From IMG/VR virus record IMGVR_UViG_3300047483_000490, positions 15,636 to 79,635 of that record: 64,000 nt of DNA. The stretch is one strand, 5' to 3'. The stretch comes from a virus. The notes beneath the pieces were generated by a model. It made no database searches. It saw only the letters and a list, made by a program, of their open reading frames with translations, and was not told the origin of the DNA. The translations under genes were made by a program, and so were the position numbers. Positions 2,943 through 43,230 of this stretch are shown here, piece after piece. Within the stretch, counting starts at the first letter, position 1. Every line of letters begins with the position of its first letter.

Positions 2943-4061
2943 ATGGAAAATCAAAATTCAGTTTGCTATGTAGCAAAAATTAACGAGATTAAAGCAATTG
3001 AAGGAGCTGACAATATTGAATTGGTAGTTGCTGGAGGTTGGAATGCTATTACAAAAAAAGGTGAATTCACCGTAGGTTCATTAACTGTAATTGCAACAAC
3101 TGACGCAGTTATTCCTGAAGCACTTTCTGAAAAGATGGGTGTTACTAATTATTTACGTAAAGGTCAAAGAGTTAGAACTGTAAAACTAAGAGGTGTTTAC
3201 TCTGAATGTTTGATTATTCCAATAGTTCATATCAAGGCTTCTAGTATTAGAGAAGGTCGCGACTTAATGGAAGAATTAGGCATCACTAAATTCGAGCCAC
3301 CGGTTAAACAAATCCAATTAACTTCTGGCAAAAAGATTCGTTACAGTGAAAATCCTAACTTTAAAATCTATTACAAGTTTCCAAACTTGAAAAATGTTGC
3401 AGGTATGTTTACTGAAGAGAACGCAGTTCAAATCACTCGTAAATTACATGGAACTAACGCACGATATGGAATTGTAAAACGTAAGAAGATAGGATTACTT
3501 ACAAAACTTAAAGCTTTTTTTGGTGACAAATGGGCTGGATATGAATTTGTAGTTGGTTCTCATAACGTTGAAAAAGGTTCTGAATCACAAGGATTCTATG
3601 ACACTAACGTGTGGTATGAAATTGCAGACAAATATAAGATCAAATCTAAGTTGTGGAATTTTATTAAAGAGACTGCAACACCTGAAGGAATTGGTGAAGG
3701 TTTTTGTATCTATGGTGAAATCTACGGTGCAGGAATTCAAAAGAATTACGAGTACGGTCTTACTGAAATTAAGTTTTCTATGTTTGACGTAACTCTTAAT
3801 GGTGATTATGTACCAACCGGATGGACAGAAATGTATGCAAATGAATTAGGATTTGATCACGTTGAAGTTCTTTACGATGGCTTATGGTCTCAAGAAATTC
3901 AAGATCGTTTTGTCTTTAACAACTTTATTGAAGGCACCAAAGTGCCACATGAAGGAATTGTAATCAAACATGTCTCTGGTGAAAGAAGTAAAGTAGCTAA
4001 GGTTATTAACCCAGACTATTTAATCTACGGTGAAAAAAATAACGTAGGAGATTCTCACTAA
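2943..4061 (+). CDS. RNA ligase, DRB0094-type (N-terminal OB fold plus Rnl2-like nucleotidyltransferase)
   Basis: Motif I KLHGTN, YGEIYG, FDV and EGIVIK; N-terminal IEGADNIE. Confidence 0.9.
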   Translation: MENQNSVCYVAKINEIKAIEGADNIELVVAGGWNAITKKGEFTVGSLTVIATTDAVIPEALSEKMGVTNYLRKGQRVRTVKLRGVYSECLIIPIVHIKASSIREGRDLMEELGITKFEPPVKQIQLTSGKKIRYSENPNFKIYYKFPNLKNVAGMFTEENAVQITRKLHGTNARYGIVKRKKIGLLTKLKAFFGDKWAGYEFVVGSHNVEKGSESQGFYDTNVWYEIADKYKIKSKLWNFIKETATPEGIGEGFCIYGEIYGAGIQKNYEYGLTEIKFSMFDVTLNGDYVPTGWTEMYANELGFDHVEVLYDGLWSQEIQDRFVFNNFIEGTKVPHEGIVIKHVSGERSKVAKVINPDYLIYGEKNNVGDSH

Positions 4062-9764: not shown

Positions 9765-10580
9765 ATGAGAACATTTAAATACATTTTTGTCTGTGGTACA
9801 TCTTTTACAGCCGGTGGAGGATTTGAAGATAAAAATAGCAACAGACCAATAATACAAAAACACATGGACGAGCCTATTCCAGCAAAAATGGAAGATTGCG
9901 CTTGGCCAGCTTTTTTACAAAAACAAATAGATCCTAAAATCAAAGTTTATAATCTAGCTTTGCCTGGGGCTGGTGTTGAATATTTAATAAGAACTACTGA
10001 AGAATGGATGGCTAAAAATCCAGATAAAGTTAAAGACACTTTATTTTTATTAGAAAATTCAGGTTATGGTAGAATTGAATTATGGGATGTCGAGCTAGAC
10101 AGATATATTGTCTGTAATTGGGACTATGCTATTAGAAAAGATAAATTTTGTGCATCCGCTCACAGTGGAAAGTACTGGGAAGATTCTCACGAAACAGCAC
10201 AAAGGATAATAAATAAAGAACCACTTATAGAAACTTGGTTAAATACGTTCGGTGAACCTATGAAAATGGTAGAAGATCTTAACAATAGATTTTTTAATTT
10301 TCTATGTAAGCTAAATTATAAAGGCATTGATTTTAAAGTTTTTGGTGAACCTTTAAATGATCCAGAACTACATAAAGAAGATGTGTTTTTAAAGAATAGA
10401 TTAGCATTAATGGTTGGAGATAAAGAGATCAATCACATTCATGATTTTTTAATTATCAACCATTTACAGATAAAACAATTAACTAACGGAGAATGTGATG
10501 ATTTTCACGCAACGTTAGAAGGAAATAGAGTTGTAGCACAAGTTTACTATAACGAATTAAAAAAACATTACGATTTATGA
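9765..10580 (+). CDS. SGNH/GDSL-like hydrolase or acyltransferase, paralog 2
   Basis: GTSFTAG and DFH.TLEGN; shares CAWPAFLQKQIDPKIKVYNLAL with 8374..9183. Confidence 0.7.
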   Translation: MRTFKYIFVCGTSFTAGGGFEDKNSNRPIIQKHMDEPIPAKMEDCAWPAFLQKQIDPKIKVYNLALPGAGVEYLIRTTEEWMAKNPDKVKDTLFLLENSGYGRIELWDVELDRYIVCNWDYAIRKDKFCASAHSGKYWEDSHETAQRIINKEPLIETWLNTFGEPMKMVEDLNNRFFNFLCKLNYKGIDFKVFGEPLNDPELHKEDVFLKNRLALMVGDKEINHIHDFLIINHLQIKQLTNGECDDFHATLEGNRVVAQVYYNELKKHYDL

Positions 10581-12244
10581 TACAGTTAGGTATTTCAGCA
10601 TTTTATCATGACTCTGCTGCATGTATTGTAAAAGACGGCAAGGTTTTAGCAGCAATAGAAGAAGAAAGATTTACAGGCATTAAACATGATTTTAGCTTTC
10701 CTAAAAAATCTATTGAGTGGTTATTTGACTATTTAAATTTAACAATAGAAGATATTGATGAAGTTTGTTGGTATGAAAATCCAGAGCTTAAAAAACAAAG
10801 GGTTCTTGCTACTTTTGACAAACATTTTTTCAAGTCATTCTTTAATAGAATTAAATTTTTAAAGAGACATAAAATAGAAGGCAACGTTAATGCTTTATTA
10901 GAACAACATCTAAATTACAATGGCAAAGTTACTCTTGTAGATCATCACATCTCACATGTCATGTTTGCATATAAGACTTCACCATTTGATGATTGTGCAA
11001 TCGTTTCTATCGATGGTGTAGGTGAGTGGGATACGATGACAGTTTCTCAAGTTAAAGATGACAAGCTAATAAAAATTTCAGAGACAGTTTTTCCGCACTC
11101 TTTAGGTATGTTTTACTCAACATTCACTTCATTTTTAGGTTTTAAACCAAACGAAGGTGAATATAAAGTAATGGGTTTAGCACCTTATGGAAATCCAGAA
11201 GTTTATTACCCAGAATTGTTTGCCTTATTTACACTTTTACCAGAAGGTAGATTTTCTATCGATCAAAAATATTTTACGTGGGAATACTCAGACAAAATCA
11301 TGTTCAAAGACACATTGTGTGAATATTTAAATATGGCTCCGAGAACTAAAGATGCTCCAATGGAACAATGTCATAAAGACTTAGCAGCCTCGGTACAAAT
11401 GGTATATGAACGTATTTTTATGCATATTTTAGAATTTGCAAAAGAACAAACCGGAAGCAATAATTTATGCCTTAGCGGTGGTTGTGCATATAATGGAGTT
11501 GCAAATAATAAAGCTTACAGATTGTTCGAACATATTTGGGTTCCCTTTGCCCCATCAGATTCAGGGTCAGCTATTGGTGCATGCCTAGCATCATATCCTG
11601 GTAAAACGGCAGATAATACGTCTCCATATTTAGGCTCAGAATTCAATCTATGGGACATTCATACAGCTATTACTTATTTTCAATTTGAGATTGATGTAAG
11701 AGAATTGACTGAAGAAGAACTAATAGAAAAAACGGCAACAGCTATTAACGAAAACAAAGTTATAGGCTGGTGTCAAGGTAGAATGGAATTTGGAGCTAGA
11801 GCTCTTGGAAATAGATCAATTCTTGCTAGTCCATTGGACCCAGAAATGAAGTCTAGACTAAATAGAGTTATTAAAAAGAGAGAAGGCTTTAGACCTTTTG
11901 CACCTTCGTGTATTGAAGAAGATGCTGCTAAATTCTTTGAAATTCAAGACACTGTGCCTTATATGAATCAAGTGATGCAAGTTAAAAAAGAATGGACATT
12001 ACCTTCTATTACACACGCAGATGGTTCAGCTAGAGTACAGACAGTTAACAAAAATCAAAACGATAAATACTATAAGTTACTTAAAAAATTAGGTGATATT
12101 TCAGGATTTCCAATATCTTTGAATACTTCATTTAATTTTAAAGATCAAACCATAACTGCAACACCACATGATGCAATTGAAAGATTTTTAGATTGTGAAA
12201 TGGATGTTTTAGTAATTAATAACTATTATATAACAAAACTATGA
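10577..12244 (+). CDS. Carbamoyltransferase (NodU/CmcH/TobZ family)
   Basis: GISAFYHDSAA, EEERF, HHISH, DGVGE, EYKVMGLAPYG, GARALGNRS, LNTSFN. Confidence 0.95.
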   Translation: MIQLGISAFYHDSAACIVKDGKVLAAIEEERFTGIKHDFSFPKKSIEWLFDYLNLTIEDIDEVCWYENPELKKQRVLATFDKHFFKSFFNRIKFLKRHKIEGNVNALLEQHLNYNGKVTLVDHHISHVMFAYKTSPFDDCAIVSIDGVGEWDTMTVSQVKDDKLIKISETVFPHSLGMFYSTFTSFLGFKPNEGEYKVMGLAPYGNPEVYYPELFALFTLLPEGRFSIDQKYFTWEYSDKIMFKDTLCEYLNMAPRTKDAPMEQCHKDLAASVQMVYERIFMHILEFAKEQTGSNNLCLSGGCAYNGVANNKAYRLFEHIWVPFAPSDSGSAIGACLASYPGKTADNTSPYLGSEFNLWDIHTAITYFQFEIDVRELTEEELIEKTATAINENKVIGWCQGRMEFGARALGNRSILASPLDPEMKSRLNRVIKKREGFRPFAPSCIEEDAAKFFEIQDTVPYMNQVMQVKKEWTLPSITHADGSARVQTVNKNQNDKYYKLLKKLGDISGFPISLNTSFNFKDQTITATPHDAIERFLDCEMDVLVINNYYITKL

Positions 12245-15371: not shown

Positions 15372-15447
15372 CGGGTAATAGAGGAGTCAGGCTTATCTCG
15401 CTGGCCTTGGACGCTAGAGCACGCAGGTTCGAATCCTGCTTACCCGA
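15372..15447 (+). tRNA. tRNA-Pro(UGG)
   Basis: CGGGTAA/TTACCCG acceptor; CTGGC-CTTGGAC-GCTAG. Confidence 0.9.
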
Positions 15448-15479
15448 CAAGAATAGTTCATTGACATATTGGTAAAGTT

Positions 15480-15560
15480 ACCCAGATGATGGAATGGTAG
15501 ACATAACGGTCTTAGAAACCGTGGTCGTAAGACGTGAGAGTTCGAGTCTCACCGGGGTCA
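15480..15560 (+). tRNA. tRNA-Leu(UAG) with mismatched acceptor and T stems (possibly pseudo)
   Basis: ACGGT-CTTAGAA-ACCGT and long variable arm; imperfect 3' side. Confidence 0.7.
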
Positions 15561-15564
15561 CAAT

Positions 15565-15686
15565 GGTCGAGTGGTGTAATTGGTAACACAACAGGCCTTA
15601 GAGAGCAAGCGGTTCGATTCCACAAAGCTTAATGTAACTGGTAGTTACACATCCTGTTGATGTAGGTTCGAATCCTGCCTTGGCCA
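15565..15686 (+). ncRNA. tRNA-like RNA with ~55-nt insert in the anticodon loop
   Basis: GGTCGAG/CTTGGCC acceptor, D-arm, ACAGG/CCTGT stem, canonical T-arm. Confidence 0.75.
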
Positions 15687-15691
15687 CAAAT

Positions 15692-15789
15692 GCTTCATAC
15701 ACAATCTTACGATCTCTCAGTTAAAAGCTGTCGTAAGCGTAAATCGATATTCCTATATGTTTATCAGTTGTGAACAATATGAAGCTCCA
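15692..15789 (+). ncRNA. Branched hairpin RNA ending in acceptor-like stem plus T-CCA
   Basis: GCTTCATA/TATGAAGC, CACAA/TTGTG and CTTACGA/TCGTAAG stems. Confidence 0.55.
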
Positions 15790-15790
15790 T

Positions 15791-15865
15791 GCTTTCTTAG
15801 CTCAGTTGGTTCAGAGCATCTCGTTTACACCGAGAGGGTCACAGGTTCGAATCCTGTAGAAAGCA
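15791..15865 (+). tRNA. tRNA-Val(UAC)
   Basis: TCTCG-TTTACAC-CGAGA; canonical cloverleaf. Confidence 0.95.
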
Positions 15866-15961
15866 CTGTCGGCGCCCAAAGGACGCATGACCTGGTCAGA
15901 GATTTATTCTCGCAAACTCGGTACCTAAAGCTGAGCGGCCAATCTACGGGATTGGCTTTAT

Positions 15962-16035
15962 GCCCGGGTGGTGGAATTGGTATACACGGCGGCCTTAGAA
16001 CCCGTCTATTGAGAGTTCGAGTCTCTCCTTGGGTA
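15962..16035 (+). tRNA. tRNA with Leu(UAG) anticodon but short variable loop
   Basis: Leu-type D-arm; CTTAGAA loop; 5-nt variable region. Confidence 0.75.
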
Positions 16036-16098
16036 CTATGTTCATTATTATGCAATGTTCACTCGCAATGAACACATAAAAATAATGAACACATAAAT

Positions 16099-16175
16099 GG
16101 TAGTTATAGTGTTAATGGTTAGCACGTCAGATTGTGGTTCTGCTAGTATGGGTTCGAATCCCATTAATTACCCCA
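16099..16175 (+). tRNA. tRNA-His(GUG)
   Basis: TTGTGGT loop; G-1; C73; CCA. Confidence 0.93.
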
Positions 16176-16176
16176 C

Positions 16177-16264
16177 GGAAGTTTGTCAGAGTGGTCTATT
16201 GTGCATCTTTGCTAAAGATGTGGATGTTAAAGTCCCACAGGTTCGAATCCTGTAGCTTCCGCCA
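16177..16264 (+). tRNA. tRNA-Ser(GCU)
   Basis: CATCT-TTGCTAA-AGATG; long variable arm; GCCA end. Confidence 0.93.
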
Positions 16265-40901: not shown

Positions 40902-40958
40902 AGGATGCTTCCAGCAAATTTACAAAACTTTATATGGAAAAGCAAAACATAGCATCCT
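40902..40958 (+). ncRNA. stem-CAGCAA RNA copy 1 (minimal form)
   Basis: AGGATGCT/AGCATCCT closing stem, TCCAGCAA, internal CTTT-ATATGGA-AAAG hairpin. Confidence 0.65.
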
Positions 40959-42052: not shown

Positions 42053-42229
42053 ATGCAAAATTTAAATCAGATCGAAGAGATTCTTAACTCAATCAAAGAA
42101 GACGCAACTAAATTTTTCGAAAAAGGAAACAAAGCAGCTGGAACTAGAGTTCGTAAAGCAATGCAAGAAATCAAAGCATTAGCGCAAGCAGTTCGTACTG
42201 AAGTTTCAGAGAAAAACAAAGAAGCTTAA
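42053..42229 (+). CDS. Histone H1-like protein (Hc1 family, Bacteroidota type), 58 aa
   Basis: KFFEKGNKAAGTRVRKAMQEIK.LAQ..R; absent from ORF track. Confidence 0.85.
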   Translation: MQNLNQIEEILNSIKEDATKFFEKGNKAAGTRVRKAMQEIKALAQAVRTEVSEKNKEA

Positions 42230-42474: not shown

Positions 42475-42615
42475 AGGTTTCTTACAGCAATTAAAATTCT
42501 ATAGGAACTGGTATCGAAAGATGTGTAGGTTCGAGTCCTACCTCTCCAACAAATTTTAAAATAATTGGAGAGTGGTGAAATTGGTAGACACGCTAGTCAG
42601 AAAAAACAGAAACCT
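42475..42615 (+). ncRNA. stem-CAGCAA RNA copy 2 containing a circularly permuted tRNA-Leu (YrlA-like)
   Basis: AGGTTTCT/AGAAACCT; order is variable arm, T-arm, CTCTCCA, linker, TGGAGAG, D-arm. Confidence 0.85.
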
Positions 42616-42625
42616 GAAAATTATT

Positions 42626-42684
42626 GGAATACCTACAGCAAGCTTACCAAACTTTGACTTTTACTCAAACCAAATGCGTATTCC
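42626..42684 (+). ncRNA. stem-CAGCAA RNA copy 3 carrying a tRNA-Lys(UUU)-like anticodon hairpin
   Basis: GGAATAC/GTATTCC; TACAGCAA; TTTGA-CTTTTAC-TCAAA. Confidence 0.7.
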
Positions 42685-42701
42685 GTTAAATTATTTTATA
42701 A

Positions 42702-42836
42702 AGGATGGTTCCAGCAACACATACAAATTAGGCTGTTAACCTCGTGGTCGTCGGTTCGAACCCGGCCTTTGAACACCGCCTTAAGTGGCACGTTCAGAGT
42801 AGCTCAGTTGGTAGAGCACGTACAAAAGCCCATCCT
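42702..42836 (+). ncRNA. stem-CAGCAA RNA copy 4 containing a circularly permuted tRNA-Asn (YrlA-like)
   Basis: AGGATGG/CCATCCT; AGG-CTGTTAA-CCT, T-arm, CTTTGAA, linker, TTCAGAG, D-arm TAGCTCAGTTGGTAGAGC. Confidence 0.85.
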
Positions 42837-42924
42837 GATAAATTAAAAGTGTGTCTTGGTCCGCTCTGGCGAAAGTTAACGACAAGGTCCCGGTTGGCAG
42901 AAGGCCTCTGATCCAACCCAAAAC

Positions 42925-42999
42925 GCAGCAATGGTATAACGGTTATCACACCGCCTTGCCAAGGCGGATATCGCAGTTCGATTCTGCGTTGCTGCTCCA
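42925..42999 (+). tRNA. tRNA-Gly(GCC)
   Basis: CCGCC-TTGCCAA-GGCGG; U73; CCA. Confidence 0.95.
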
Positions 43000-43192
43000 G
43001 TAGATTTTTTAGCGTGGCGTGGATTCAGCAGACTTGTTAAATCTTAAAAGAAACAAGATAAGGTAATAAGAATCAAGTTTGACAGTGATTATCTTTGAAC
43101 AACTGTACTGCTTTGGTGATCGATCGCCCGTTCCCAGTATCGAATGAAAACTCGTAAGGCAAGATGCAAAACTGTAGCGCATCACCAAAGTT

Positions 43193-43230
43193 AAAAGGGA
43201 ACCCGTGCACATGGTTCCCTTTTCTTTTTT
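43193..43230 (+). terminator. Intrinsic terminator
   Basis: AAAAGGGAACC/GGTTCCCTTTT plus T-tract. Confidence 0.85.

What the first reader, a model, noticed from the sequence alone, without database searches (positions are those of the whole stretch)
42626..42684. 59-nt RNA presenting an isolated tRNA-Lys(UUU) anticodon stem-loop
Seen: TTTGA-CTTTTAC-TCAAA, a 5-bp stem with a 7-nt loop (C32 U33 UUU A37), nearly identical to the bacterial tRNA-Lys anticodon arm, mounted on the CAGCAA scaffold. No full tRNA-Lys was seen in this window. Known: tRNA-Lys is the target of the anticodon nucleases PrrC and PARIS AriB. Inference: a minimal RNA decoy for anticodon nucleases.
Basis: partly seen in the sequence, partly recalled or inferred. 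Interest (0 to 1): 0.75.

Follow-up and report, generated by a model that had tools for sequence, protein, structure and literature searches.

The report
Phage small RNA displaying tRNA-Lys anticodon arm
This is a real 60-base small-RNA gene of a large phage: a conserved "handle" that travels with a Ro60-like ring protein carries a copy of the tRNA-Lys anticodon arm, probably as bait for enzymes that read or cut that arm, in an RNA family I did not find described in the papers searched.

Summary
The hairpin is real: TTTGA-CTTTTAC-TCAAA at 42653-42669, 14 of 17 bases identical to the E. coli tRNA-Lys(UUU) anticodon arm. Alone it is within chance, about one such hairpin per strand of this window. 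Its context is what counts.

It sits inside a "handle": a 7-bp closing stem, NUN, CAGCAA and an unpaired G after the 3' stem. My model found 61 distinct short RNAs with this handle in about 25 phage records. The stem covaries and the 3' G is invariant.

Handle RNAs lie directly after a DUF2828/DUF7788 gene in many phages, including this one. That protein's model matches Ro60/TROVE structures. So the RNA is most likely a Y-RNA-like partner of a phage Ro60-like protein.

The loop test is partly passed. Close orthologues keep CUUUUAC. More distant ones keep the stem, the 7-nt loop and U33 but show GUA, CAU or UUA. CUUUUAA recurs on four other stems.

Neighbouring RNAs carry circularly permuted tRNA bodies, one with an intact Asn(GUU) loop.

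A decoy or bait role against anticodon nucleases is plausible but untested. There are no expression data.

This scan noted the family before, in at least 43 other genomes. The handle also resembles Dictyostelium Class I RNAs.

The parts
42626..42632 (+). 5' strand of the closing stem (GGAAUAC); G2 and U5 are family invariants
   Evidence: stem 99.1% paired in 61 distinct members; 5 of 7 pairs show compensatory changes
42633..42641 (+). handle motif: spacer CUA (middle U invariant) plus invariant CAGCAA
   Evidence: (invariant columns T9, C11-A16)
42642..42652 (+). A-rich 5' linker, variable in sequence and length among orthologues
   Evidence: 1-nt indels show it is not coding
42653..42669 (+). 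anticodon-arm mimic: 5-bp stem UUUGA/UCAAA with 7-nt loop C32 U33 U34 U35 U36 A37 C38
   Evidence: (14/17 to E. coli lysT arm)
42670..42677 (+). A-rich 3' linker (CCAAAUGC)
42678..42685 (+). 3' strand of the closing stem (GUAUUCC) plus the invariant unpaired G at 42685
   Evidence: G in 61/61; this position is not part of the model
42475..42615 (+). sibling handle RNA A: circularly permuted tRNA-Leu(UAG)-derived body (T arm, closed acceptor, D arm), anticodon stem covarying, loop open
   Evidence: (variable arm matches the phage tRNA-Leu(UAG) of G001), 4
42702..42836 (+). sibling handle RNA C: circularly permuted tRNA body with an intact CUGUUAA (Asn GUU) anticodon loop
   Evidence: Rfam YrlA 30.6 bits, E 2e-4, below the cut-off of 69; AGG/CCU to AGA/UCU compensatory change; loop invariant
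40902..40958 (+). sibling short handle RNA E3; its hairpin loop varies in length among orthologues and is not anticodon-like
   Evidence: (52 bits)
42925..42999 (+). tRNA-Gly(GCC) on the same strand, downstream in the same non-coding cluster
43193..43230 (+). terminator-like hairpin plus U run that probably ends the RNA cluster
2943..4061 (+). RNA ligase family (PF09414) gene: context for tRNA repair capacity

Best explanation
The 60-nt RNA (42626-42685, + strand) belongs to a viral family of small RNAs built as a protein-binding handle plus a variable display part. The handle is a 7-bp closing stem, NUN-CAGCAA and a 3' unpaired G. It most likely binds the phage's own Ro60-like protein (DUF2828 + DUF7788/vWA, encoded 46 kb upstream in the same record), as Y RNAs bind Ro60. 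The display part is a mimic of the tRNA-Lys(UUU) anticodon stem-loop. I commit to this mechanism: the particle presents the anticodon arm as bait for a protein that reads the tRNA-Lys anticodon loop. That protein is most plausibly a host anticodon nuclease, which is thereby sequestered, competed away from real tRNA-Lys, or handed to the Ro-like particle. Shown by computation: the handle, its covariation, its genetic link to the DUF2828 gene, the Ro60-like predicted fold, and the anticodon-arm signature with its conservation pattern. Inferred: transcription and stability of the RNA, binding to the DUF2828 protein, and the identity of the protein that the loop engages. My odds: handle-family member 0.9; partner of the Ro60-like protein 0.65; genuine anticodon-arm mimic 0.7; nuclease bait specifically about 0.3-0.35. 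The confidence of 0.5 given for this explanation is for the statement up to 'bait for a protein that reads the loop'.
For: Family. Model R1 finds 78 matches (61 distinct) in about 25 phage records. The closing stem is 99.1% paired, with compensatory changes at 5 of 7 pairs and a covariation score of 0.745 against 0.17 in shuffles and at most 0.16 when slid. The base after the 3' stem, outside the model, is G in 61 of 61. Protein link. The DUF2828 gene is present in this record and is followed at once by two handle RNAs. The same arrangement holds in many of 80 IMG/VR relatives down to 59% protein identity and in coliphage JH2. DUF2828 is present in 5 of 5 complete genomes that hold ASL-display RNAs, two of them found through the hairpin alone. 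Fold. The AF2 model (pLDDT 77.7) has Ro60/TROVE structures as its 12 best PDB matches (E 4e-9 to 3e-5, TM up to 0.58). The MIDAS residues D271-x-S273-x-S275, T343 and D375 are invariant. Anticodon arm. It is 14/17 identical to the E. coli lysT arm. Orthologues always have a 7-nt loop, although 5-9 nt was allowed in the search. Across nine distinct hairpins U33 is invariant, C32 and A37 are each kept in 8 of 9, and 3 of 5 stem pairs show compensatory changes. Loops of the form CU...A occur in 9 of 61 elements, against 0.0007 per element in shuffled interiors. CUUUUAA recurs on four other stems (TTTCA/TGAAA, CAAA/TTTG, TCAAA/TTTGA, TCTA/TGGA). Context. Sibling RNAs in the same cluster are permuted tRNA bodies, one with a conserved Asn(GUU) loop. 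The phage carries 17 tRNA genes and an RNA ligase. Bait reading. The anticodon triplet switches between related phages (UUU, GUA, CAU, UUA) on an unchanged stem. That fits host-specific targets better than universal enzymes. A Ro60-like protein of coliphage Bas63 counters a defence system, Ppl (PMC11482910).
Against: The hairpin is thermodynamically marginal (-0.7 kcal/mol), and a similar hairpin occurs by chance about once per strand of the window. This RNA lies 46 kb from the DUF2828 gene, so its binding is inferred from paralogues. Not all family members display anticodon-like loops: the RNAs next to the gene have unstructured interiors, and E3 has a loop of variable length. One orthologue has U at position 37 and A at 32 (AUCAUUC). 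Between the Lys and Tyr-like versions the loop changed about as fast as the linkers. The Bas63 phenotype concerns Ppl, an ATPase-PHP system with no known link to tRNA. No anticodon nuclease, host or target has been identified. The hairpin sets were chosen by their ability to pair, and the model-fitted alignment leans towards the structure.
Confidence: 0.5

Rival explanations
1. Same ribonucleoprotein, different job. The anticodon arm is an adaptor that tethers the Ro60-like particle to a housekeeping enzyme that reads the tRNA-Lys anticodon loop: lysyl-tRNA synthetase, a modification enzyme for U34 or A37, or a repair enzyme. This would be like Y RNA tethering Ro60 to PNPase, and would serve tRNA quality control or repair rather than decoying a nuclease.
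For: Y RNAs act as tethers, and YrlA is a substrate of tRNA modification enzymes (PMC4201824). Phage phiLo Ro60 with its Yrl RNAs assembles with host PNPase (PMC12135203). All five complete or near-complete phages tested encode an RNA ligase, and Listeria phage LP-124 has an RtcB-like ligase 1.3 kb from its DUF2828 gene. The displayed anticodons (Lys, Asn, Tyr, Met-like) belong to tRNAs whose synthetases read the anticodon (established knowledge).
Against: Universal enzymes give no obvious reason for the triplet to switch between closely related phages on an unchanged stem. Ligases do not need anticodon identity. RtcB is absent from the five phage genomes tested here.
Confidence: 0.25
2. The hairpin is only a spacer or stabilising element of a Y-like RNA. 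Only the handle matters, for example to gate the Ro-like ring, and the likeness to tRNA-Lys is an accident of U-rich loops in AT-rich RNA.
For: One such hairpin per strand is expected by chance in the window. The hairpin is barely stable. Paralogues next to the gene have no hairpin at all, and E3 has a loop of variable length. Loop triplets are not conserved at depth.
Against: CU...A loops are enriched, 9 of 61 against about 0.04 expected. All orthologues have a 7-nt loop when 5-9 nt was allowed. U33 is invariant. The identical CUUUUAA loop sits on four different stems in distant lineages. Sibling RNAs carry unmistakable tRNA bodies and a conserved Asn loop.
Confidence: 0.12
3. It is a piece of a split tRNA-Lys, or a decayed tRNA-Lys remnant, that is joined in trans with the neighbouring permuted tRNA bodies to make a working tRNA.
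For: The record has no tRNA-Lys gene. Neighbour C has a D arm and variable loop identical to those of E. coli tRNA-Lys. An RNA ligase is encoded.
Against: Neighbour C already has its own Asn anticodon loop closed by its own halves, with covariation. Neighbour A closes its own anticodon stem. B has no flanks complementary to either. The relative G001 has both B and a normal tRNA-Lys. B keeps the full handle, which is shared with RNAs that have no tRNA parts.
Confidence: 0.03

Closest known systems
Ro60/Rsr with Y RNAs, especially bacterial and phage YrlA/YrlB (Rfam RF02553; Chen et al. 2014, PMC4201824) and Thermus phage phiLo Ro60 with Yrl1/Yrl2 (PMC12135203)
   Same: Small RNAs whose 5' and 3' ends pair into a stem, encoded beside and on the same strand as a ring-shaped TROVE+vWA protein. 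A modular build of a protein-binding stem plus an effector part that mimics tRNA. Presence in phages. D. radiodurans Yrn1 was even modelled with an 'anticodon arm' of 5 bp and a 6-nt loop.
   Different: The protein is the DUF2828/DUF7788 family; the Pfam TROVE model gives no hit, and the likeness shows only at fold level. The RNA motif is NUN-CAGCAA plus a 3' G, not GNCGAAN0-1G. This member has no T or D arm, only an isolated anticodon arm with a canonical 7-nt loop. It lies 46 kb from the protein gene. The displayed anticodon differs between phages.
Class I RNAs of dictyostelid social amoebae (Rfam RF01414; Kjellin et al. 2021, PMC7919456)
   Same: Length of about 42-65 nt. A short terminal stem whose sequence covaries, with a conserved 5' G. 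A conserved single-stranded motif, (C)CUUACAGCAA, directly after the 5' stem strand. A variable remainder. A 3' end of the form C-N-G (CUGU in Class I). Of 4227 Rfam models, this one hits handle RNAs end to end in 5 of 7 phage loci at 25-31 bits, plus sibling A at 24 bits.
   Different: All scores are below the Rfam cut-off of 41.5, and this particular RNA gets no hit at E<=10. The spacer is one base shorter. The setting is a phage, not a eukaryote, with no DUSE promoter. The known Class I partner is an RRM protein (Rnp1A/CIBP), not a Ro-like protein. Class I RNAs are reported as unique to Dictyostelia. Homology is not shown.
Phage-encoded tRNAs that replace or outlast host tRNAs cut by anticodon nucleases (for example T5 tRNA-Lys against PARIS, from my own knowledge; van den Berg et al. 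2023, eLife e85183, seen only as a title in a reference list)
   Same: A phage-encoded RNA carrying a tRNA-Lys anticodon loop, in a phage rich in tRNA genes. Lys(UUU) is a favourite nuclease target.
   Different: This RNA cannot decode: it has no acceptor, D or T arm. If it counters a nuclease it must do so by binding or competition, not by replacing the tRNA.

Membership tests
CAGCAA-handle RNA family (defined here by model R1) | 7-bp closing stem of the 5' and 3' ends with invariant G2-C and U5-A pairs | tested here: met
   GGAAUAC/GUAUUCC. Family stem statistics. R1 score 39.5 bits, E 6e-6, though this RNA was one of the seeds.
CAGCAA-handle RNA family (defined here by model R1) | 3-nt spacer with a middle U, then CAGCAA, directly after the 5' stem strand | tested here: met
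   CUA-CAGCAA at 42633-42641; invariant columns.
CAGCAA-handle RNA family (defined here by model R1) | unpaired G immediately after the 3' stem strand | tested here: met
   G at 42685; G in 61 of 61 distinct members, a position outside the model.
CAGCAA-handle RNA family (defined here by model R1) | co-occurrence with a DUF2828/DUF7788 (Ro60-like) gene in the same genome | tested here: met
   Gene at G000:C1 about 10544-11974. Present in 5 of 5 complete genomes holding ASL-display members.
YrlA / bacterial Y RNA (RF02553) | GNCGAAN0-1G motif near the 5' end (PMC4201824) | tested here: not met
   No such motif in 42626-42685 on direct reading.
YrlA / bacterial Y RNA (RF02553) | tRNA-like domain with T arm and D arm | tested here: not met
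   The interior holds only one 17-nt hairpin. Siblings A and C do have T and D arms.
YrlA / bacterial Y RNA (RF02553) | within about 4 kb of, and on the same strand as, a Ro60 orthologue | tested here: not met
   It lies 46 kb downstream of the DUF2828 gene, on the same strand. Pfam TROVE gives no hit in the record. Paralogues E1 and E2 are adjacent to the gene.
YrlA / bacterial Y RNA (RF02553) | Rfam gathering score (69 bits) | tested here: not met
   No hit on this RNA at E<=10; sibling C scores 30.6 bits.
Dictyostelium Class I RNA (RF01414) | 42-65 nt with a 6-bp terminal stem and a conserved 5' G | tested here: met
   59-60 nt with a 7-bp stem and G at positions 1-2. Definition taken from PMC7919456.
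Dictyostelium Class I RNA (RF01414) | 11-nt motif (CCUUACAGCAA in the Rfam consensus) beside the 5' stem; U3, C6, C9, A10 and A11 near-universal | tested here: inconclusive
   This RNA has C-CUACAGCAA, one base shorter. The near-universal positions are present.
Dictyostelium Class I RNA (RF01414) | Rfam gathering score (41.5 bits) | tested here: not met
   No hit on this RNA at E<=10. Paralogues and relatives score 18-31 bits.
Dictyostelium Class I RNA (RF01414) | dictyostelid genome with a DUSE promoter about 60 nt upstream | tested here: not met
   The source is a phage record from IMG/VR, so the eukaryotic promoter context does not apply.
tRNA (RF00005) | cloverleaf with acceptor, D, anticodon and T arms | tested here: not met
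   Neither ARAGORN nor Rfam calls a tRNA at 42626-42685.
tRNA anticodon stem-loop (mimicry, not membership) | 5-bp stem; 7-nt loop; U33; purine 37; pyrimidine 32 | tested here: met
   UUUGA-C32 U33 UUU A37 C38-UCAAA. Nine distinct related hairpins: U33 in 9/9, C32 in 8/9, A37 in 8/9.
Anticodon-nuclease decoy or inhibitor | binds, or is cut by, an anticodon nuclease and protects tRNA-Lys or phage growth | not testable with these tools

The most novel reading that the evidence does not exclude
The handle RNAs of phages, this one included, and the Class I RNAs of Dictyostelium are one ancient family of partner RNAs for DUF2828-type Ro60-like proteins. In phages the particle is a programmable display platform. 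It presents swappable tRNA anticodon arms (Lys, Tyr, Asn and others) or nicked-looking tRNA bodies to capture or neutralise host anticodon nucleases, so the displayed anticodon reports which tRNA the host's defence attacks.
Probability: 0.2. Interest if true: 0.9.

Novelty: new variant of a known kind. Interest (0 to 1): 0.74.

Why it matters
Ro60/Y-RNA particles are conserved from bacteria to humans, yet what the RNA's variable part recruits is known in very few cases.

This is a Ro60-like system, widespread in phages, whose RNAs carry readable cargo: isolated anticodon arms of defined identity and permuted tRNA bodies. The DUF2828 protein has a homologue in 711 cultured phage records, including Felix O1-like coliphages, Listeria P100-like phages and mycobacteriophages.

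That makes the function directly testable in laboratory phage-host pairs. Felix O1-like coliphages carry the same handle RNAs after the gene. A Ro60-like protein of a phage from that group, Bas63, has already been reported to counter a defence system.

If the bait model holds, this would be an RNA-based counter-defence against anticodon nucleases. I found none described in the papers I searched.

The handle's likeness to Dictyostelium Class I RNAs, whose function is unknown, offers a candidate protein partner and a testable idea for that orphan class.

Tried and rejected

2. The Pfam TROVE model does not hit the record, and a sequence search of the PDB with the protein found nothing relevant. 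Only the fold comparison shows the Ro60 likeness.

3. The neighbouring 252-aa ORF gave only 3 related loci, useless for synteny. DNA search in the relatives' records worked instead.

4. A naive stem-plus-CAGCAA finder is far too permissive: 25 of 32 motifs 'paired', and 24 hits appeared in shuffled DNA against 58 real. I replaced it with a covariance model.

5. CAGCAA on its own is not enriched in the window: 40 seen against 35 expected.

6. The tRNA-Gly(GCC) downstream starts with GCAGCAA. I considered a link between the handle and an acceptor strand and rejected it, because the orthologous tRNA-Gly in G001 has a different acceptor stem.

7. The Rfam alignment suggested an alternative closing of sibling C by ACACA/UGUGU. 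I rejected it because that pairing is not conserved in G001.

8. The ORF 42572-42739 overlapping the RNA is rejected as coding: orthologues differ by 1- and 2-nt indels inside it.

9. Model R1 finds no handle RNA near the DUF2828 gene of Listeria phage LP-124. I therefore could not tie the abundant transcripts reported for the related phage CKA15 (PMC12282133) to this family.

10. The protein atlas and the homologue search returned only viral or near-identical DUF2828 proteins. Whether Dictyostelium encodes a DUF2828 protein remains untested.

11. RtcB is absent from the five phage genomes tested.

Full report
**What is there.** The window is the last 64 kb of a 79.6-kb IMG/VR phage record estimated at about 30% of a genome. 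At 42626-42684 the sequence is as described:
- closing stem GGAATAC/GTATTCC;
- spacer CTA, then CAGCAA;
- an A-rich linker, the hairpin TTTGA-CTTTTAC-TCAAA (42653-42669), and a second A-rich linker.

The fold of 42626-42685 reproduces this structure (-7.4 kcal/mol, z -1.98). The hairpin alone is marginal (-0.7 kcal/mol). The arm is 14/17 identical to the anticodon arm of E. coli lysT. It is 12/17 identical to the tRNA-Lys(UUU) of the closest complete relative, G001. Neither ARAGORN nor Rfam calls a tRNA here, and the record has no tRNA-Lys gene. A CTTTTA-looped 5-bp hairpin occurs once per strand in this window. The hairpin alone would therefore not be remarkable.

**The setting.** The RNA lies in a 750-bp non-coding cluster on the + strand (about 42475-43230). 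The order is: handle RNA A, this RNA (B), handle RNA C, a conserved structured spacer, tRNA-Gly(GCC), another structured stretch, and a terminator-like hairpin. A, B and C, a fourth RNA at 40902-40958, and two more RNAs just outside the window all share one build. That build is a 6-8-bp closing stem, three bases, CAGCAA, a variable interior, an A-rich run, and the 3' stem strand.

An earlier first-reader note (e1-6091818) pointed me to a DUF2828 gene upstream of the window. I confirmed it with PF11443 and PF25043. The two RNAs outside the window start 17 nt after its stop codon.

**The family.** Starting from the DUF2828 protein I fetched 80 related IMG/VR loci (94-59% identity). In many of them a stem-NUN-C(A/U)GCAA element follows the gene directly, with different stem sequences.

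I built a covariance model from 37 short elements, giving it only the closing stem as structure. It finds one to three short members per phage genome, 78 matches and 61 distinct sequences in all.
- The stem is 99.1% paired.
- Five of seven pairs show compensatory changes (119 cells).
- Covariation is 0.745, against 0.17 in shuffles (0 of 500) and at most 0.16 when slid. The alignment was fitted to the model, which flatters these numbers somewhat.
- The base after the 3' stem, which the model does not include, is G in 61 of 61.

B has every invariant: G2, U5, the middle U of the spacer, CAGCAA and the 3' G at 42685.

**The protein.** An AlphaFold2 model of the DUF2828/DUF7788 protein was built from 21 sequences (pLDDT 77.7, pTM 0.71). 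Its 12 best PDB matches are all Ro60/TROVE structures: Thermus phage phiLo Ro60, Xenopus and human Ro60, and D. radiodurans Rsr (E 4e-9 to 3e-5, TM up to 0.58 over the full length). Isolated vWA domains come next. The MIDAS residues are invariant.

The family has homologues in 711 cultured phage records. These include Felixounavirus, Listeria P100-like phages, Vibrio and Campylobacter phages, and the mycobacteriophage 'Ro-like RNA binding proteins'. Coliphage JH2 has four handle RNAs (AGACCNN-NNN-CAGCAA...NNGGTCT-G) right after the gene. All five complete genomes that hold ASL-display RNAs encode DUF2828; two of them I had found through the hairpin alone.

The parallel with Ro60 and its neighbouring Y RNAs (PMC4201824; PMC12135203) is close. 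I read the handle as the binding module for this protein. That is an inference from gene linkage, not a demonstration.

**Testing the loop.**
- Close relatives: DNA search found orthologues of B in G001, G002 and G004.
- Wider search: a pattern fixed the handle and the hairpin stem, left the loop free and allowed 5-9 nt. It found 14 true homologues in IMG/VR, all with 7-nt loops. CTTTTAC occurs in eight contigs, one of them with a different closing stem. CTGTAAT, the Tyr GUA pattern, occurs in four contigs, one of which is G004. ATCATTC and CTTTAAC occur once each.
- Other stems: the model searches added hairpins on different stems. CTTTTAA sits on TTTCA/TGAAA, CAAA/TTTG, TCAAA/TTTGA and TCTA/TGGA. 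CTCCAAT, ATTTGAA and CTATAAA also occur, and CTTGTAA occurs twice.
- Rules kept: in nine distinct hairpins U33 is invariant, C32 and A37 are each kept in eight, and three of five stem pairs show compensatory changes. These hairpins were picked for their ability to pair, so the percentage paired is circular.
- Unbiased pass: over all 61 elements, 9 have a 4-bp or longer hairpin with a CU...A 7-nt loop, against 0.0007 per element for shuffled interiors. These nine are not phylogenetically independent.

In short, the loop obeys anticodon-loop rules. The UUU version is the commonest and recurs independently, but the triplet is not fixed at depth. Not every family member displays such a loop: the RNAs beside the gene have open interiors, and the 40902 RNA has a loop of variable length.

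**The siblings.**
- C is a circularly permuted tRNA body: T arm, closed acceptor, D arm. Rfam's YrlA model scores it 30.6 bits (E 2e-4), well below its cut-off. Its CUGUUAA (Asn GUU) loop is invariant in three phages, while the adjacent stem changes AGG/CCU to AGA/UCU.
- A derives from the phage tRNA-Leu(UAG); its variable arm matches that tRNA in G001. Its anticodon stem covaries, but the loop is open and not conserved.

These siblings make tRNA mimicry in this family hard to doubt, and they raise the prior that B's hairpin is meant as an anticodon arm.

**Mechanism.** I commit to the following. B is a Y-RNA-like partner of the phage Ro60-like protein. Its displayed tRNA-Lys anticodon arm serves as bait for a protein that reads that loop, most plausibly a host anticodon nuclease.

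In favour of bait rather than adaptor:
- the triplet switches between related phages on an unchanged stem, which suits host-specific targets;
- Lys is the commonest display and the classic nuclease target (PrrC and PARIS, from my own knowledge);
- jumbo phages invest in tRNAs and RNA repair against such attacks (PMC7824862);
- this phage has 17 tRNA genes and an RNA ligase;
- a Ro60-like protein of coliphage Bas63 counters a defence system (PMC11482910).

Against:
- that system, Ppl, has no known tRNA link;
- no nuclease has been identified;
- the hairpin is weak;
- there are no expression data.

The main rival is an adaptor role that tethers the particle to a synthetase, modification or repair enzyme. 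This is the established way Y RNAs work. I give bait about 0.3-0.35, adaptor 0.25, incidental hairpin 0.12 and split tRNA 0.03.

**Comparison with what is known.** The system works like Ro60/Y RNA, but B fails the YrlA membership tests: no GNCGAA motif, no T or D arms, not within 4 kb of the gene, and no Rfam hit.

The handle closely resembles Dictyostelium Class I RNAs. Both are about 60 nt, with a covarying terminal stem and a conserved 5' G, (C)CUUACAGCAA beside the 5' strand, and a 3' end of the form C-N-G. Rfam's Class I model is the one family that repeatedly hits handle RNAs end to end: 25-31 bits in 5 of 7 loci, 24 bits on A and 18 bits on E1. All these scores are below its cut-off, and B itself is not hit. 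Homology is a lead, not a result.

I found no paper describing DUF2828 partner RNAs or a phage RNA that displays an isolated anticodon arm. The nearest are speculative remarks on possible Y RNAs in Bas63 and in Listeria phage CKA15.

Within this scan the family has been noted before, in at least 43 other genomes, including the Class I likeness. I reached the YrlA and Class I leads from Rfam before reading those notes, and I tested the DUF2828 link myself.

**Verdict.** I class it as a new variant of a known kind (Ro60/Y-RNA-type particle with tRNA mimicry), of high interest and directly testable in cultured phages.

Noticed in passing
window 42837-42924: A structured spacer of about 85 nt between handle RNA C and tRNA-Gly. 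It is conserved at about 83% in two other phages and shows a compensatory change (GGTTGG/CCAACC to GGTAGG/CCTACC in G001). No Rfam family matches it.
   Followed up: partly
window 43000-43192: A non-coding stretch after tRNA-Gly with an 11-bp long-range stem (about 43110-43190) just before the terminator-like hairpin at 43193-43230. It is probably another small RNA. No Rfam match.
   Followed up: no
L001:2628-2873 (G000:C1:12052-12297, upstream of the window): A 246-nt handle RNA (GGATCG-GTA-CAGCAA...CGATCC) right after the first handle RNA and the DUF2828 gene. It carries a large GC-richer structured insert of unknown nature. Only weak, sub-threshold Rfam matches.
   Followed up: partly
window 15565-15686: Rfam scores a tRNA at 50.5 bits over 122 nt, so a tRNA with an insert of about 50 nt. 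ARAGORN does not call it.
   Followed up: no
window 15372-16264 compared with G001:244100-248330: Between tRNA-Pro and tRNA-Val the relative G001 has ten more tRNA genes (Cys, Phe, Gly, Asn, Tyr, Trp, Met, Arg, Met, Lys) that this phage lacks at the same place. So this phage has the Lys and Asn display RNAs but not the matching tRNA genes, at least in the part recovered.
   Followed up: partly
window 42925-42999: The tRNA-Gly(GCC) acceptor stem begins GCAGCAA, the same hexamer as the handle. This is a coincidence: the orthologous tRNA in G001 has GCGAAAG.
   Followed up: yes
L155 (Listeria phage LP-124, NC_047745.1:123709-133208): The DUF2828 gene sits in a tRNA-rich region with an RtcB-like ligase gene 1.3 kb downstream. 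My handle model finds nothing there, so Listeria phages may use a divergent handle.
   Followed up: partly
L156:5713-6571 (Escherichia phage JH2, NC_029023.1): Four handle RNAs with AGACCNN/NNGGTCT stems lie in the unannotated stretch right after the 'RNA-binding protein' (DUF2828) gene of a cultured Felix O1-like coliphage. This is a ready laboratory model.
   Followed up: partly
window 42053-42229: A small ORF (58 aa) that looks, by my own reading of its translation, like a histone H1/Hc1-like basic protein, just upstream of the RNA cluster. Not checked against any library.
   Followed up: no
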